From Escherichia phage vB_EcoM_JS09: a stretch of DNA of 64,000 nucleotides. The notes under the pieces are model-generated. The model saw only the letters and a list, made by a program, of their open reading frames with translations. It was not told the origin of the DNA and made no database searches. Position numbers and translations under genes: made by a program. The stretch lies in sequence record NC_024124.2, one strand, 5' to 3'. Shown in pieces: positions 1,517 to 63,998 of the stretch. Each line of letters starts with the position of its first letter. Positions within the stretch are counted from its first letter, which is position 1.

Positions 1517-2602
<1,086 letters not shown>

Positions 2603-2603
<1 letters not shown>

Positions 2604-2999: not shown

Positions 3000-3006
3000 G
3001 GTAATT

Positions 3007-3282
3007 ATGTTCCCAACTTATTCTGAAATTGTAAAGGTAGTCTTCAGTCAGATTATTGCTAATAATATGTTTGAAGTGCTTGATAATGCAGCCGAACTCA
3101 GAGTTCATGCTCAACTAACTCATGTACTCAATGCTTTGCTCCCAGACCAAGTAGATTCTATTGCTATTACTCTTCTCCCTGGGTCTGCGCACGTCATAGT
3201 GGTATTTGATCTTGATGGTGATTTAGTTATCCAGTGTGATATCAATTTCGGTACACAAAAAATTGAATGCAAAGCAATTTAA
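3007..3282 (+). CDS. hypothetical protein (cd.x region)
   Basis: 91 aa ORF with GAGGT RBS. Confidence 0.5.
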   Translation: MFPTYSEIVKVVFSQIIANNMFEVLDNAAELRVHAQLTHVLNALLPDQVDSIAITLLPGSAHVIVVFDLDGDLVIQCDINFGTQKIECKAI

Positions 3283-3284
3283 TG

Positions 3285-3314
3285 GTTTACAACATGGTGG
3301 AGTTGTGATACTAT
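3285..3314 (+). promoter_or_regulatory. T4-type early promoter nested in inverted repeat GGTGGAGTT/AACTCTACC
   Basis: GTTTAC 3285-3290, -10 region GATACTATA about 3307-3315; followed by GAGGAA RBS and ATG 3343. Confidence 0.6.
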
Positions 3315-3342
3315 AACTCTACCAACAAATGAGGAAATAGAA

Positions 3343-3579
3343 ATGCTAAGTGAAAACCCAATTACAGTACACGAATTTCAGATTAAAGTAAAAGAATTTG
3401 CTCAAGCACTCATCAATAAAGTGTCTGAACGTTTCCAAGATGCAACATTACGAGTTATTCAAGAATCTCCACGTTCTTTTCTCATAATCGTTAATCCTAA
3501 AGATGGTGACCAAATTACTAATCTTAAATTAGGCAGTGACGGTCTTGTTGAAGCAACTCGAGTATATGGAACACTATAA
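3343..3579 (+). CDS. hypothetical protein
   Basis: 78 aa ORF behind early promoter module. Confidence 0.55.
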   Translation: MLSENPITVHEFQIKVKEFAQALINKVSERFQDATLRVIQESPRSFLIIVNPKDGDQITNLKLGSDGLVEATRVYGTL

Positions 3580-3699
3580 TGAGAGCTATCTCATTACTAT
3601 CGAGAATGGTCATAAATCTGAGCACTACCAACTTAGCCTGTCTAATCCGGTTAAAGGTATTGTTGAATCAGAATCTGTTTATATCTCCTAAGGATTGTT

Positions 3700-4692
3700 A
3701 TGTTACCTGTCATCAGAAAACTTATTTCTCCAAAAGAACTGGCTGAGATTATTCCTTTGTCGGAAGCTTACGCATCACAAGTGGCTTCTCATCGCGAACA
3801 AGTTAATTCGATTATGAACGGTGAAGACCCACGCAAACTTATTGTTGTAGGTCCTTGTTCAATTCATGACCCTATTGCTGCTGTTGAATACGGCAAACGT
3901 CTGGCTGAACTTCAAACTCGTCTTCCTAATGTTCTGTTAGTGATGCGCGTTTATTTTGAAAAGCCTCGAACTACCGTAGGTTGGAAAGGTCTTGTAAATG
4001 ATCCATATCTTGACGGAAGTTTTGATATGAACCACGGTCTTATAGTTGCACGAACATTGTGTCGTAAACTTCTACGTATAGGACTTCCATTAGCAACTGA
4101 AGTATTAGACCCATTCACGATTAAGTATCTTTCTGGTATTTTCTCATGGGTTGCTATTGGCGCCCGTACGACTGAAAGTCAGACACATCGTGAAATTGCT
4201 TCAGGTCTACCGATGTGCGTAGGCTTCAAGAACGCAACCAATGGTTCTATTAAAGTAGCTACAGACGCGATGTATAGTGCCGCCTGGCCTCATCGGTATA
4301 TGGGTATGGACGTCGATGGTACTGTAGGCATTGTTGAAGCTGAAGGTAATCAGAATACGCATATCGTATTGCGTGGCGGGACCAACGGCCCGAACTATCA
4401 TTCTTCTGATATTCAAGAAGCTTCTAACAAAGCAAGGGCAGTAGGTCTGAATCATTATGTAATGGTTGACTGTAGCCATGCAAACGCTGATGGACATTAT
4501 AGCAATCAAATTGGTATTGGTAAAAATTTAGCAGCTAATGATTTGGTCAAAGGAATTATGATAGAATCATTCCTACATGAAGGAAATCAAAAAATTTCCG
4601 ATAATATGTCCTATGGCGTTTCCGTTACCGATGCGTGCATCAGTTGGGAACAAACTAAAGAGCTGTTAACTTATATTAATAAGGTTCAATAA
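3700..4692 (+). CDS. 3-deoxy-D-arabino-heptulosonate-7-phosphate (DAHP) synthase, class I (AroG/AroF/AroH-like)
   Basis: 330 aa; full-length colinearity with E. coli AroG as recalled: VVGPCSIHD, MRVYFEKPRTTVGWKGL, GARTTESQTHRE, GFKN, DCSHAN, ESFLHEGNQ, TDACISWE; stop overlaps cd start. Confidence 0.85.
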   Translation: MLPVIRKLISPKELAEIIPLSEAYASQVASHREQVNSIMNGEDPRKLIVVGPCSIHDPIAAVEYGKRLAELQTRLPNVLLVMRVYFEKPRTTVGWKGLVNDPYLDGSFDMNHGLIVARTLCRKLLRIGLPLATEVLDPFTIKYLSGIFSWVAIGARTTESQTHREIASGLPMCVGFKNATNGSIKVATDAMYSAAWPHRYMGMDVDGTVGIVEAEGNQNTHIVLRGGTNGPNYHSSDIQEASNKARAVGLNHYVMVDCSHANADGHYSNQIGIGKNLAANDLVKGIMIESFLHEGNQKISDNMSYGVSVTDACISWEQTKELLTYINKVQ

Positions 4693-5273
4693 TGAAAGCT
4701 AGCACATACCTTCAGATTGCATATCTGATTTCTCAAGAATCAAAATGTTGTTCATGGAAAGTTGGCGCAGTCATTGAAAAAGATGGGCGCATTATTTCTA
4801 CTGGGTATAACGGTTCACCTGCAGGTGGCGTTAACTGTTGCGAACATGCATCTGAAAATGGTTGGTTGAAGAATAAACCAATCCCAGTCATCGTTGCTGG
4901 GCATAAAGAAGGCACTACAGCATTTGGACGGGCAGATAATTTTGTTTTGGCTAAAGAACATCGGGCCGCTCATAGTGCATGGTCTGCTAATAACGAAATC
5001 CATGCAGAATTGAATGCAATTTTGTTTGCAGCTCGTAAAGGTAATTCTATTGAAGGTGCTACGTTGTATACGACACTTTCTCCATGTCCTGATTGCACTA
5101 AAGCTATTACGCAGTCAGGTATTAAAAAGGTTGTATACGCAGAATTATATGACAGATCTCCTGAAAATTGGGCAGACATTCTTAAACAAGCTGGTATTGA
5201 AGTAATTCAGTACTCTCGTAATAATCTTCGTTCTCTGAATTGGGAACAAATCCGAAACTTTTGTGGTGAATAA
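4692..5273 (+). CDS. cd: dCMP deaminase
   Basis: 193 aa; near-identical to T4 Cd (MKASTYLQIAYLISQESKCCSWKVGAV..., HAELNAI, SPCPDC zinc motif). Confidence 0.95.
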   Translation: MKASTYLQIAYLISQESKCCSWKVGAVIEKDGRIISTGYNGSPAGGVNCCEHASENGWLKNKPIPVIVAGHKEGTTAFGRADNFVLAKEHRAAHSAWSANNEIHAELNAILFAARKGNSIEGATLYTTLSPCPDCTKAITQSGIKKVVYAELYDRSPENWADILKQAGIEVIQYSRNNLRSLNWEQIRNFCGE

Positions 5274-63923: not shown

Positions 63924-63998
63924 GGCCCTGTAGCTCAATGGGAGAGCTGTCAGCTCATAACTGATAGGTAGCTGGATCGAAACCAGCCAGGGTCACCA
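63924..63998 (+). tRNA. tRNA with anticodon CAU (Met or lysidine-type Ile), encoded CCA
   Basis: Hand-folded cloverleaf: acceptor GGCCCTG/CAGGGTC, D-arm GCTC/GAGC, anticodon loop CTCATAA, T-arm GCTGG/CCAGC, then A+CCA. Confidence 0.8.

What the first reader, a model, noticed from the sequence alone, without database searches (positions are those of the whole stretch)
3283..4692. Intact-looking DAHP synthase (shikimate pathway entry enzyme) as phage cargo directly upstream of cd
The 330-aa ORF at 3700..4692 is colinear with class I DAHP synthase. The residues I recall as AroG metal ligands and substrate contacts are all present (Cys in GPCSIHD, His in DCSHAN, Glu in ESFLHEGNQ, Asp in TDACISW, KPRTT, GARTTESQ). 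The T4 reference has only small cd.x ORFs at this locus, to my knowledge. The gene reads AT-rich like its phage neighbours, overlaps the cd start (taATG) and sits behind the early promoter module at 3285 plus a 78-aa ORF, so it looks like an established early-expressed cassette. Its N-terminus is about 8 residues shorter than E. coli AroG and lacks the N-terminal acidic residues implicated in Phe feedback inhibition; a feedback-insensitive enzyme is speculation from alignment only.
Basis: partly seen in the sequence, partly recalled or inferred. Interest (0 to 1): 0.8.

Follow-up and report, generated by a model that had tools for sequence, protein, structure and literature searches.

The report
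Phage-borne DAHP synthase, likely feedback-insensitive
The phage gene really does encode an intact first enzyme of the aromatic amino-acid (shikimate) pathway, but it is already annotated in over 200 sequenced T4-like phages; the part worth pursuing is that its feedback-inhibitor site has been consistently rebuilt, so it probably ignores the host's brake.

Summary
Window 3700..4692 (+) encodes a 330-aa type I-alpha DAHP synthase: Pfam PF00793 E=5e-75, TIGR00034 428 bits, and an AlphaFold model with TM 0.95 to E. coli AroG. All 14 metal, PEP and E4P residues are intact. The stop codon overlaps the cd start.

It is not new. The window is a Mosigvirus, 99.7% identical to phage Mizar. The gene is annotated in 138 near-identical records and 211 phage records overall. 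It lies between pseT and cd in all five genera inspected, and it is PHROG 5045 (category: moron/auxiliary metabolic gene). T4 lacks it, and so does RB69.

First, all 29 phage-clade proteins have a short N-terminus and I/K/P/Y at AroG positions P150/Q151/S180/F209. The 98 closest bacterial homologues keep P/Q/S/F. Substitutions at these positions make AroG and AroF feedback-resistant. The pocket is nevertheless more conserved than the rest of the protein, and dN/dS between genera is 0.14-0.20. Second, a fragment of a foreign cd.2 gene next to the enzyme gene, and very low synonymous divergence within Mosigvirus, suggest the cassette was imported from a Kanagawavirus-like relative.

The best reading is an early-expressed, feedback-insensitive enzyme at the pathway entry point. 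This has not been tested biochemically. Interest is modest.

The parts
3286..3314 (+). Sigma-70-type, T4-early-like promoter: TTTACA, 17-nt spacer, TACTAT, with an extended -10 TG.
   Evidence: The consensus scan found it. The scan total itself is not above chance: 7 sites found against 11.7 expected. The whole cd.3-cd.2 intergenic stretch aligns with T4 (GGTTTAC...GAGTTGTGATAxTATA), where the T4 record annotates early promoter Pe133295. No terminator-like site lies on the + strand between here and cd.
3343..3579 (+). cd.2 homologue, 78 aa, function unknown; first gene of the inferred early transcription unit.
   Evidence: Pfam DUF7320 at E=1.5e-35 and phrog_1504. It is 95% identical to RB69 Cd.2 and 65% to T4 Cd.2.
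3577..3597 (.). Degenerate copy of the cd.2-stop/cd-start junction (TAATGAGAGCTATCTCAT...). It marks the left edge of the roughly 1.1-kb segment that RB69 lacks.
   Evidence: BLAST of the window against RB69 aligns window 3001-3594 and 4689-4900 to contiguous RB69 sequence, with a 19-nt overlap. A three-way alignment shows the RB69 junction equals the window's left flank plus its right flank.
3536..3691 (+). Small 51-aa ORF whose last 34 residues are a 3' fragment of a foreign cd.2 gene; most likely a scar of the cassette's import.
   Evidence: It matches phrog_15876, and weakly phrog_1504 positions 41-76. The fragment is 55-56% identical to the cd.2 C-terminus of Kanagawavirus CIP9 and Marfavirus VAC36, but only 29% to the window's own cd.2 and to T4 and RB69 cd.2.
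3690..3694 (+). Shine-Dalgarno-like AAGGA, 5 nt upstream of the enzyme's ATG.
   Evidence: Read directly from the sequence. The Mizar record annotates a ribosome binding site at the same place.
3700..4692 (+). Type I-alpha DAHP synthase (3-deoxy-7-phosphoheptulonate synthase), 330 aa. Catalytic residues are C53, H260, E289 and D311, with K88-T91, R83, R156, K177 and R225. The remodelled regulatory residues are I141, K142, G146, P171, Y200 and A214, and the N-terminus is truncated.
   Evidence: dN/dS against four other genera is 0.14-0.20.
4692..5273 (+). cd, dCMP deaminase; its ATG overlaps the DAHP synthase stop codon (TAATG).
   Evidence: PF00383 at E=1.5e-26. Annotated as cd in Mizar, RB69 and T4.

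Best explanation
The gene encodes a catalytically competent, metal-dependent type I-alpha DAHP synthase. The enzyme condenses phosphoenolpyruvate and erythrose 4-phosphate, which is the committed and flux-controlling step of the shikimate pathway.

It is transcribed early, from the promoter between cd.3 and cd.2, together with cd.2 and dCMP deaminase. Its stop codon overlaps the cd start, which would permit translational coupling.

The host isozymes AroF, AroG and AroH are each inhibited by one aromatic amino acid. The phage enzyme has lost the parts that bind that inhibitor. These are the N-terminal residues that complete the site from the neighbouring subunit, and the contacts equivalent to AroG P150, Q151, D155, S180 and F209.

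The most likely result is an unregulated entry enzyme. It would keep carbon flowing to chorismate, and so to Phe, Tyr, Trp and the folate and quinone precursors, in an infected cell. In such a cell the host's own DAHP synthases are feedback-inhibited, and they cannot be re-induced once the phage has shut off host transcription.

Shown here: enzyme family, fold, intact active site, remodelled regulatory site, purifying selection, synteny, and homology of the promoter region to T4. Inferred: catalytic activity, feedback insensitivity, early timing, and the physiological benefit.
For: **Family and fold.** PF00793 at E=5e-75. TIGR00034 at 427.7 bits against a cut-off of 173, and PRK12755 at 454.5 against 343. 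AroF 6agm at E=1.6e-104. The AlphaFold model has pLDDT 87 and TM 0.95 / rmsd 1.7 A to AroG 5cks and 1gg1, with two consecutive strands predicted at 198-203 and 209-214, where I recall the beta6a/6b hairpin of this class.

**Active site.** All 14 checked residues are invariant in 29 of 29 phage-clade sequences.

**Regulatory site.**
- At AroG P150, Q151, S180 and F209 the phage clade has I, K, P and Y in 28-29 of 29 sequences. The closest bacterial homologues have P, Q, S and F in 91-97 of 98.
- 9 of the 13 clade-discriminating columns fall in or near the regulatory region: AroG 144, 150, 151, 155, 156, 160, 180, 209 and 223.
- The N-terminus before the conserved Pro is 8-12 aa in the phage clade, against 16 or more in bacteria.

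**Published mutants.** AroG P150L, S180F, F209A/S and Q151 variants are feedback-resistant. Q151/Q152 and S180/S181 contact the inhibitor's main chain (PMC9529685). AroF P148 and Q152 substitutions and deletion of Ile11 give Tyr-insensitive enzyme (PMC5791370).

**Selection.** dN/dS against CIP9, VAC36, X20 and PM2 is 0.14-0.20, similar to cd. No copy examined has an internal stop.

**Synteny.** The gene lies between pseT and cd in Mosig-, Kanagawa-, Marfa-, Winkler- and Bragavirus.

**Promoter.** The promoter region aligns with the T4 gap that holds early promoter Pe133295.

**Independent phage copy.** Aeromonas phage HJ05 carries a separately acquired DAHP synthase with A, H, P and V at the same four positions and an intact active site.
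Against: - No enzyme assay, expression data or phage knockout exists in the paper library searched.
- Feedback insensitivity is inferred from sequence alone. Lys for Gln and Tyr for Phe are fairly conservative changes and might still bind a ligand.
- Within the phage clade the former inhibitor pocket is more conserved than the rest of the protein (mean entropy 0.21 against 1.01, p about 5e-4). A simply discarded site would not look like this.
- The gene is dispensable. RB69, moha and one mar005P1 record are close relatives without it.
- The specificity-position residue is Gly, as in Tyr-sensitive AroF. Many depositors accordingly label the protein Tyr-sensitive.
- Host DAHP synthase protein should persist through a short lytic cycle, so the size of any benefit is unknown.
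Confidence: 0.6

Rival explanations
1. It is an ordinary Tyr-inhibited AroF-type isozyme. It only adds catalytic capacity and stays under normal feedback control.
For: The best solved match is Tyr-sensitive AroF. The residue at the AroG S211 position is Gly, as in AroF. Automatic annotations call it 'aroF, Tyr-sensitive'.
Against: The AroF Q152 equivalent is Lys, S181 is Pro, P151 is Ile, and the N-terminus is 9 residues shorter than AroF, in all 29 clade members. Substitutions at AroF Q152 and deletion of Ile11, and substitutions at the AroG positions equivalent to P151 and S181 (P150L, S180F), abolish inhibition in the E. coli enzymes. The protein is below the NCBIfam cut-offs for the AroG and AroH equivalogs.
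Confidence: 0.13
2. The allosteric site has been repurposed rather than lost. The conserved I-K-P-Y/G/A pocket binds a different effector, for example a pathway intermediate or a nucleotide linked to the phage dCMP deaminase pathway, or it forms a protein-protein contact.
For: Pocket residues are significantly more conserved than the protein average within the phage clade (entropy 0.21 against 1.01, p about 5e-4; 64% invariant against 36%). The same replacement residues are fixed across lineages only 56-77% identical overall. The gene abuts cd, with overlapping stop and start codons.
Against: No candidate ligand is known. The same segments lie close to the active site (minimum 8.5 A in the C. 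glutamicum AroF model) and, from my own knowledge of the AroG structure, near the dimer interface. Structural constraint could therefore explain the conservation. The N-terminal half of the site is missing.
Confidence: 0.12
3. The benefit lies in consuming the substrates, not in the aromatic products. Draining erythrose 4-phosphate and PEP would pull the non-oxidative pentose-phosphate pathway toward pentose phosphates for nucleotide synthesis.
For: The gene sits in a nucleotide-metabolism neighbourhood: pseT, then cd immediately downstream. An unregulated enzyme would be an effective sink. Mosigviruses also divert ribulose 5-phosphate for DNA arabinosylation (PMC13326640).
Against: This is purely inferential. 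RB69 makes the arabinosylated DNA without this gene. No flux data exist. The drain would cost one PEP per E4P.
Confidence: 0.08
4. The enzyme has shifted substrate, for example to arabinose 5-phosphate or another phosphosugar, and supplies a sugar acid for DNA or surface modification.
For: From my own knowledge, E. coli DAHP synthase weakly accepts 5-carbon phosphosugars. [quoted passage not shown]
Against: The KPRTT E4P-phosphate motif and all substrate contacts are invariant. RB69 arabinosylates its DNA without the gene. None of the 13 clade-specific columns is one of the 14 checked active-site residues; 9 lie in or near the regulatory region.
Confidence: 0.03
5. It is a decaying, functionless passenger gene picked up from a host.
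For: It is dispensable in RB69-type relatives.
Against: dN/dS is 0.14-0.20 at saturating dS. The reading frame is intact in all copies examined. GC3 has adapted to the phage. The position is conserved in five genera. The nearest bacterial homologue is only about 55% identical.
Confidence: 0.02

Closest known systems
PHROG 5045, the 'phospho-2-dehydro-3-deoxyheptonate aldolase' of T4-like phages (for example Escherichia phages Mizar, HX01, PhAPEC2 and phiC120; Enterobacter phage CIP9; Klebsiella phage KLB31)
   Same: This is the same gene family, and in Mosigvirus the same allele (98-99.7% identity). The locus is the same, between pseT and cd. It is already listed as an auxiliary metabolic gene (PMC11845039; PMC8022965).
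   Different: Nothing material differs; the window copy is a member. I found no published note of the remodelled inhibitor site, the N-terminal truncation or the lateral-import scar.
E. coli AroF (Tyr-sensitive DAHP synthase, PDB 6agm), AroG (1kfl, 5cks) and AroH
   Same: The fold matches (TM 0.95), as do the metal ligands, the PEP and E4P sites, and the two strands predicted where the beta6a/6b hairpin lies. Identity is 44-50%, and the residue at the Tyr/Phe specificity position is Gly as in AroF.
   Different: The N-terminus is 8-9 residues shorter, so the AroG D6/D7 equivalents are absent. P150 is Ile, Q151 is Lys, D155 is Gly, S180 is Pro, F209 is Tyr and T223 is Ala. The gene is phage-encoded with phage-like codon composition, and it has no TyrR or TrpR-controlled context.
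Engineered feedback-resistant DAHP synthases (AroG P150L, S180F, D146N, F209A, Q151 variants; AroF P148L, Q152I, delta-Ile11)
   Same: The natural phage enzyme is altered at the same positions that laboratory selection and design change to abolish inhibition.
   Different: The phage enzyme carries several changes at once together with an N-terminal truncation. They are fixed by natural selection and conserved across genera. The replacement residues are not those used in engineering, and the phenotype is untested.
Classical phage auxiliary metabolic genes at flux-control points (for example cyanophage transaldolase talC and psbA) - cited from general knowledge
   Same: A lytic phage carries a single host-type enzyme for a rate-controlling step rather than a whole pathway.
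   Different: The pathway is different (shikimate entry), the hosts are enterobacteria, and here the regulatory site rather than the kinetics appears to have been altered.

Membership tests
DAHP synthase type I-alpha (AroF/G/H family, PF00793 / TIGR00034) | Profile match above the curated cut-offs | tested here: met
   PF00793 scores 252 bits against a cut-off of 25.5. TIGR00034 scores 427.7 against 173.2, and NF009395 scores 454.5 against 343.
DAHP synthase type I-alpha (AroF/G/H family, PF00793 / TIGR00034) | Metal ligands Cys, His, Glu and Asp (AroG C61, H268, E302, D326) | tested here: met
   C53, H260, E289 and D311 are invariant in 29 phage and 98 bacterial sequences.
DAHP synthase type I-alpha (AroF/G/H family, PF00793 / TIGR00034) | PEP and E4P binding residues (R92, K97-P98-R99-T100, G163-A164-R165, K186, R234) | tested here: met
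   All are present and invariant in the phage clade.
DAHP synthase type I-alpha (AroF/G/H family, PF00793 / TIGR00034) | (beta/alpha)8 barrel with the inserted beta6a/6b hairpin | tested here: met
   The AlphaFold model has pLDDT 87.2 and predicts two consecutive strands at 198-203 and 209-214, where I recall the hairpin of this class. TM is 0.95 and rmsd 1.7 A to AroG 5cks and 1gg1. This is a prediction, not a solved structure.
DAHP synthase type I-alpha (AroF/G/H family, PF00793 / TIGR00034) | Catalysis of PEP + E4P to DAHP | not testable with these tools
   Needs an enzyme assay or complementation of an aroF aroG aroH mutant.
Feedback-inhibited isozyme (AroF Tyr-, AroG Phe- or AroH Trp-sensitive) | N-terminal extension that completes the inhibitor site of the neighbouring subunit | tested here: not met
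   The phage clade has 8-12 residues before the conserved Pro. AroH, AroG and AroF have 17-19, and all 98 bacterial homologues have 16 or more.
Feedback-inhibited isozyme (AroF Tyr-, AroG Phe- or AroH Trp-sensitive) | Inhibitor main-chain contacts Gln151/152 and Ser180/181, plus Pro150 and Phe209 | tested here: not met
   The window protein has K142, P171, I141 and Y200. The phage clade has these in 28-29 of 29 sequences, and bacteria have Q, S, P and F in 91-97 of 98.
Feedback-inhibited isozyme (AroF Tyr-, AroG Phe- or AroH Trp-sensitive) | Score above the NCBIfam equivalog cut-offs for AroG or AroH | tested here: not met
   AroG NF006723 scores 363.6 against 568. AroH NF009396 scores 386.5 against 463.
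Feedback-inhibited isozyme (AroF Tyr-, AroG Phe- or AroH Trp-sensitive) | Measured inhibition by Tyr, Phe or Trp | not testable with these tools
   Needs enzyme kinetics with and without each amino acid.
T4-type early transcription unit | Sigma-70 early promoter upstream, no intervening terminator, same strand as neighbouring early genes | tested here: met
   TTTACA-17-TACTAT with TG lies at 3286-3314. The region aligns with the T4 gap that holds the annotated Pe133295. No terminator-like site is on the + strand. Actual timing was not measured.
Phage auxiliary metabolic gene | A host-type metabolic enzyme kept in phage genomes under purifying selection | tested here: met
   PHROG 5045 is in the 'moron, auxiliary metabolic gene and host takeover' category. 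dN/dS is 0.14-0.20. The phage clade is monophyletic with 29 tips.

The most novel reading that the evidence does not exclude
The phage enzyme is more than a deregulated copy. Its former Tyr/Phe pocket has been rebuilt into a new, strongly conserved site (I141, K142, G146, P171, Y200, A214). That site would sense a different signal, or dock a partner, tying entry into the shikimate pathway (or E4P/PEP consumption) to the phage's own nucleotide programme. This would explain why the gene abuts dCMP deaminase, with overlapping stop and start codons. It would be a natural example of allosteric rewiring of a central metabolic control enzyme by a virus.
Probability: 0.12. Interest if true: 0.7.

Novelty: already known. 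Interest (0 to 1): 0.3.

Why it matters
DAHP synthase sets how much carbon enters aromatic amino-acid, folate and quinone synthesis, and bacteria regulate it tightly. If common T4-like coliphages, including many proposed for therapy, inject an unregulated version, infected cells are metabolically rewired at this control point. That would affect phage yield in nutrient-poor or gut-like conditions.

It would also give metabolic engineers a naturally evolved feedback-resistant type I-alpha enzyme.

The gene's existence is already on record. The value lies in the testable and apparently unreported prediction about its regulation, and in a clear case of an auxiliary metabolic gene moving between phage genera.

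Tried and rejected
- **Link to RB69-type DNA arabinosylation.** I considered whether the enzyme acts on arabinose 5-phosphate. RB69, the phage in which that chemistry was worked out, lacks the gene, and the papers do not mention it. Rejected.
- **Small ORF 3536..3691 as a remnant of T4 cd.1.** No similarity was found. It is instead a fragment of a foreign cd.2.
- **Published functional work.** Seven of the nine literature searches, using different names for the enzyme, looked for phage work. They found only passing mentions.
- **Recent capture from the host.** The nearest bacterial proteins are at most about 55% identical and taxonomically scattered. Enterobacterial AroF is at 51-52%. The NJ sister P0120 is an ordinary bacterial chromosomal gene. 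No donor bacterium can be named.
- **Other 'phage' hits.** 'Acinetobacter phage MD-2021a' is a bacterial contig carrying cob genes. The fecal 'Bacteriophage sp.' scaffolds are unannotated and of unclear origin. Most IMG/VR hits are giant-virus MAG contigs that keep the normal P-Q-S-F regulatory residues.
- **Promoter scan as statistical evidence.** It is not enriched over shuffles (7 sites against 11.7 expected). The promoter call rests on homology to T4.
- **Inhibitor pocket in three dimensions.** I could not inspect it, because model coordinates are not exposed.
Full report
**1. What is there**

Window 3700..4692 (+) is a 330-aa ORF with an ATG start. AAGGA lies 5 nt upstream. Its TAA stop overlaps the ATG of the next gene, 4692..5273, which is dCMP deaminase (cd; PF00383, E=1.5e-26).

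The protein matches Pfam DAHP_synth_1 nearly end to end (E=5e-75). It passes NCBIfam TIGR00034 'aroFGH' (427.7 bits, cut-off 173) and the PRK12755 subfamily model (454.5, cut-off 343). It falls below the equivalog cut-offs for AroG and AroH. The best solved relative is E. coli Tyr-sensitive AroF (6agm, E=1.6e-104).

An AlphaFold2 model (pLDDT 87, pTM 0.88) superposes on E. coli AroG with TM 0.95 and rmsd 1.7 A. It predicts two consecutive strands at 198-203 and 209-214, where I recall the beta6a/6b hairpin of this class.

Aligned with AroF, AroG and AroH taken from E. coli K-12, the metal ligands are present: C53, H260, E289 and D311, matching AroG C61, H268, E302 and D326. So are the PEP and E4P contacts: R83, K88-P89-R90-T91, G154-A155-R156, K177 and R225. 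All 14 residues are invariant in 29 phage-clade and 98 bacterial sequences.

**2. Context**

The window is a Mosigvirus (RB69 group), not a Tequatrovirus. The best match is Escherichia phage Mizar at 99.7%.

The upstream genes are pseT (1704..2603), cd.4, an RB69ORF227c homologue, cd.3 (3007..3282, DUF7355) and cd.2 (3343..3579, DUF7320). The promoter-like site TTTACA-17-TACTAT with an upstream TG (3286-3314) lies in the cd.3-cd.2 gap. That gap aligns base for base with the T4 gap where the T4 record annotates early promoter Pe133295. No terminator-like site lies on the + strand before cd.

Early co-transcription of cd.2, the enzyme gene and cd is therefore inferred by homology. It has not been measured.

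Gene GC is 0.41 and GC3 is 0.29. [quoted passage not shown]

**3. It is already known**

- The 1.4-kb region has 156 megablast matches among sequenced phages, 138 of them full-length.
- tblastn finds the protein in 211 phage records. Most are annotated 'phospho-2-dehydro-3-deoxyheptonate aldolase', 'DAHP synthase I alpha' or 'aroF'.
- The gene lies between pseT and cd in Kanagawavirus CIP9 (77% aa identity), Marfavirus VAC36 (67%), Winklervirus X20 (66%) and Bragavirus PM2 (58%).
- PHROGs v4 holds it as phrog_5045, in the category 'moron, auxiliary metabolic gene and host takeover'.
- Two papers mention it in passing as a DAHP synthase domain or auxiliary metabolic gene: phiC120 (PMC8022965) and Klebsiella Kanagawavirus KLB31 (PMC11845039).
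- Seven of the nine literature searches looked for phage work and found no functional study.
- RB69, the type Mosigvirus, also lacks it, with cd.2 abutting cd. Phage moha and one mar005P1 record lack it too.

**4. The regulatory site**

I aligned the 120 best database homologues with the phage and E. coli proteins. The 29 phage-clade sequences form one clade in a neighbour-joining tree, with no bacterial tip inside it. They share four features.

- **Short N-terminus.** There are 8-12 residues before the conserved Pro, against 16 or more in all 98 bacterial sequences and 17-19 in AroH, AroG and AroF.
- **Changed inhibitor contacts.** Ile, Lys, Pro and Tyr occupy AroG positions P150, Q151, S180 and F209 in 28-29 of 29 sequences. 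Bacteria have Pro, Gln, Ser and Phe in 91-97 of 98.
- **Two further fixed changes.** Gly replaces AroG D155, and Ala replaces T223.
- **Clustering.** Of the 13 columns that separate the two groups cleanly, nine lie in or next to the inhibitor-binding region.

The literature shows these positions matter. AroG P150L, S180F and F209A/S, and changes at Q151, give feedback resistance. Q151/Q152 and S180/S181 bind the inhibitor's main chain. D155 stabilises the site through a salt bridge (PMC9529685). AroF substitutions at P148 or Q152, or deletion of Ile11, give Tyr-insensitive enzyme (PMC5791370).

From my own recollection of the AroG-Phe structure (Shumilin et al. 2002), D6 and D7 of the neighbouring subunit bind the inhibitor's amino group. 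The phage protein starts at about AroG residue 9, so it has no counterpart.

One caveat is informative. Within the phage clade the pocket positions are more conserved than the protein as a whole (mean entropy 0.21 against 1.01; 0.05% of random position sets are as low). The site looks remodelled and constrained, not abandoned.

An unrelated 79-kb Aeromonas phage, HJ05, carries a distant DAHP synthase with A, H, P and V at the same four positions and an intact active site. Most copies in giant-virus MAG contigs keep P-Q-S-F.

**5. Selection and history**

Between genera, dN/dS is 0.14-0.20, comparable with cd at 0.10-0.30. Every copy examined is uninterrupted. The protein is under purifying selection.

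Within Mosigvirus the gene is unusually uniform. Its dS against four other members is 0.004-0.027, while the adjacent cd gene has dS 0.12-0.26.

The segment missing from RB69 is window roughly 3595-4688. Its left edge carries a degenerate copy of the cd.2-stop/cd-start junction.

The 51-aa ORF at 3536..3691 ends with 34 residues that are 55-56% identical to the C-terminus of cd.2 from Kanagawavirus and Marfavirus. They are only 29% identical to the Mosigvirus, RB69 and T4 cd.2.

Together these points suggest the Mosigvirus cassette, a foreign cd.2 fragment plus the DAHP synthase gene, was imported from a Kanagawavirus-like relative into the cd.2/cd junction. It then spread among Mosigviruses by recombination. 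On this reading, RB69's cd.2-cd arrangement may be the older state for the genus. This is an inference from five Mosigvirus sequences.

**6. Mechanism**

The best-supported reading (confidence about 0.6 for the whole chain) is an early-expressed, active DAHP synthase that no longer responds to aromatic amino acids. It would keep the flux-controlling first step of the shikimate pathway open. Host isozymes are feedback-inhibited, and they cannot be re-induced after phage shut-off of host transcription; alc lies a few genes upstream.

That the protein is an active DAHP synthase is very likely (about 0.9). That it is insensitive to Tyr, Phe and Trp is likely (about 0.65-0.7). The physiological pay-off could be aromatic amino acids, folate or quinone precursors, or an E4P/PEP drain, and remains open.

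The rivals considered are:

- a normally regulated AroF-like enzyme;
- a repurposed allosteric site;
- a substrate-sink role for pentose-phosphate supply;
- altered substrate specificity;
- a decaying passenger gene.

A link to Mosigvirus DNA arabinosylation is rejected, because RB69 performs that chemistry without the gene.

**7. Verdict**

What remains of interest is an apparently unreported and easily testable prediction: a naturally feedback-resistant, or re-wired, type I-alpha DAHP synthase conserved across T4-like enterobacterial phages. There is also a clear example of an auxiliary metabolic gene moving between phage genera. Interest 0.3; novelty: already known.

Noticed in passing
window 3536-3691: A small 51-aa ORF (phrog_15876) between cd.2 and the enzyme gene. 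Its last 34 residues are 55-56% identical to the cd.2 C-terminus of Kanagawavirus CIP9 and Marfavirus VAC36, but only 29% to the window's own cd.2. It looks like a recombination scar showing that the cassette came from another T4-like genus.
   Followed up: yes
window 3577-3597 and 4690-4710: An imperfect direct repeat of the 'TAATGA(G/A)AGCTA..CAT' cd-start junction brackets the roughly 1.1-kb segment that is absent from RB69, moha and one mar005P1 record.
   Followed up: partly
window 3700-4692 versus 4692-5273, compared with L001, L011, L012, L013: Within Mosigvirus the synonymous divergence of the DAHP synthase gene (dS 0.004-0.027) is 5-25 times lower than that of the adjacent cd gene (dS 0.12-0.26). 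This suggests a recent spread of a single allele. It is based on only five genomes.
   Followed up: partly
L014:3899-5062 (Aeromonas phage HJ05, 79 kb): An unrelated phage carries a 387-aa DAHP synthase annotated only as 'hypothetical protein'. The active site is intact, but the regulatory positions read A, H, P and V (AroG 150/151/180/209), and the protein has a His-rich N-terminal extension. It may be a second, independent case of a phage enzyme with an altered inhibitor site.
   Followed up: partly
L029:3971-5020 and L030 (IMG/VR contig of 262 kb): A large viral contig encodes a DAHP synthase with P, N, P and Y at the four regulatory positions. It sits next to a eukaryotic-type topoisomerase IB, a NUDIX protein and thymidylate kinase. 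Many other giant-virus MAG contigs in IMG/VR carry DAHP synthases with normal P-Q-S-F residues. By my stop-to-stop ORF calls, several of these are about 650-680 aa and may be fusions.
   Followed up: no
L016 (CAKLQH020000056.1, 'Acinetobacter phage MD-2021a'): This 13-kb 'phage' record carries aroF next to cobS, cobT and cobU and looks like bacterial chromosome. It is probably a mislabelled contig in the phage collection.
   Followed up: no
window 4496-4524 (- strand): The best-scoring promoter-like match in the region (TTTACC-17-TATAAT with TG, 10 of 12) lies antisense inside the DAHP synthase gene. The scan as a whole is below chance expectation, so this is probably fortuitous.
   Followed up: no
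window 63924-63998: A tRNA-Met (CAT) gene lies at the very end of the window. It is the only tRNA ARAGORN found in the 64 kb.
   Followed up: no
MK327943.1 (phage vB_EcoM_G53), hit H14: In this Mosigvirus the region matches in two pieces spanning 1465 bp instead of 1410, and the gene is annotated only as 'similar to hypothetical protein'. There may be an insertion in or near the enzyme gene.
   Followed up: no
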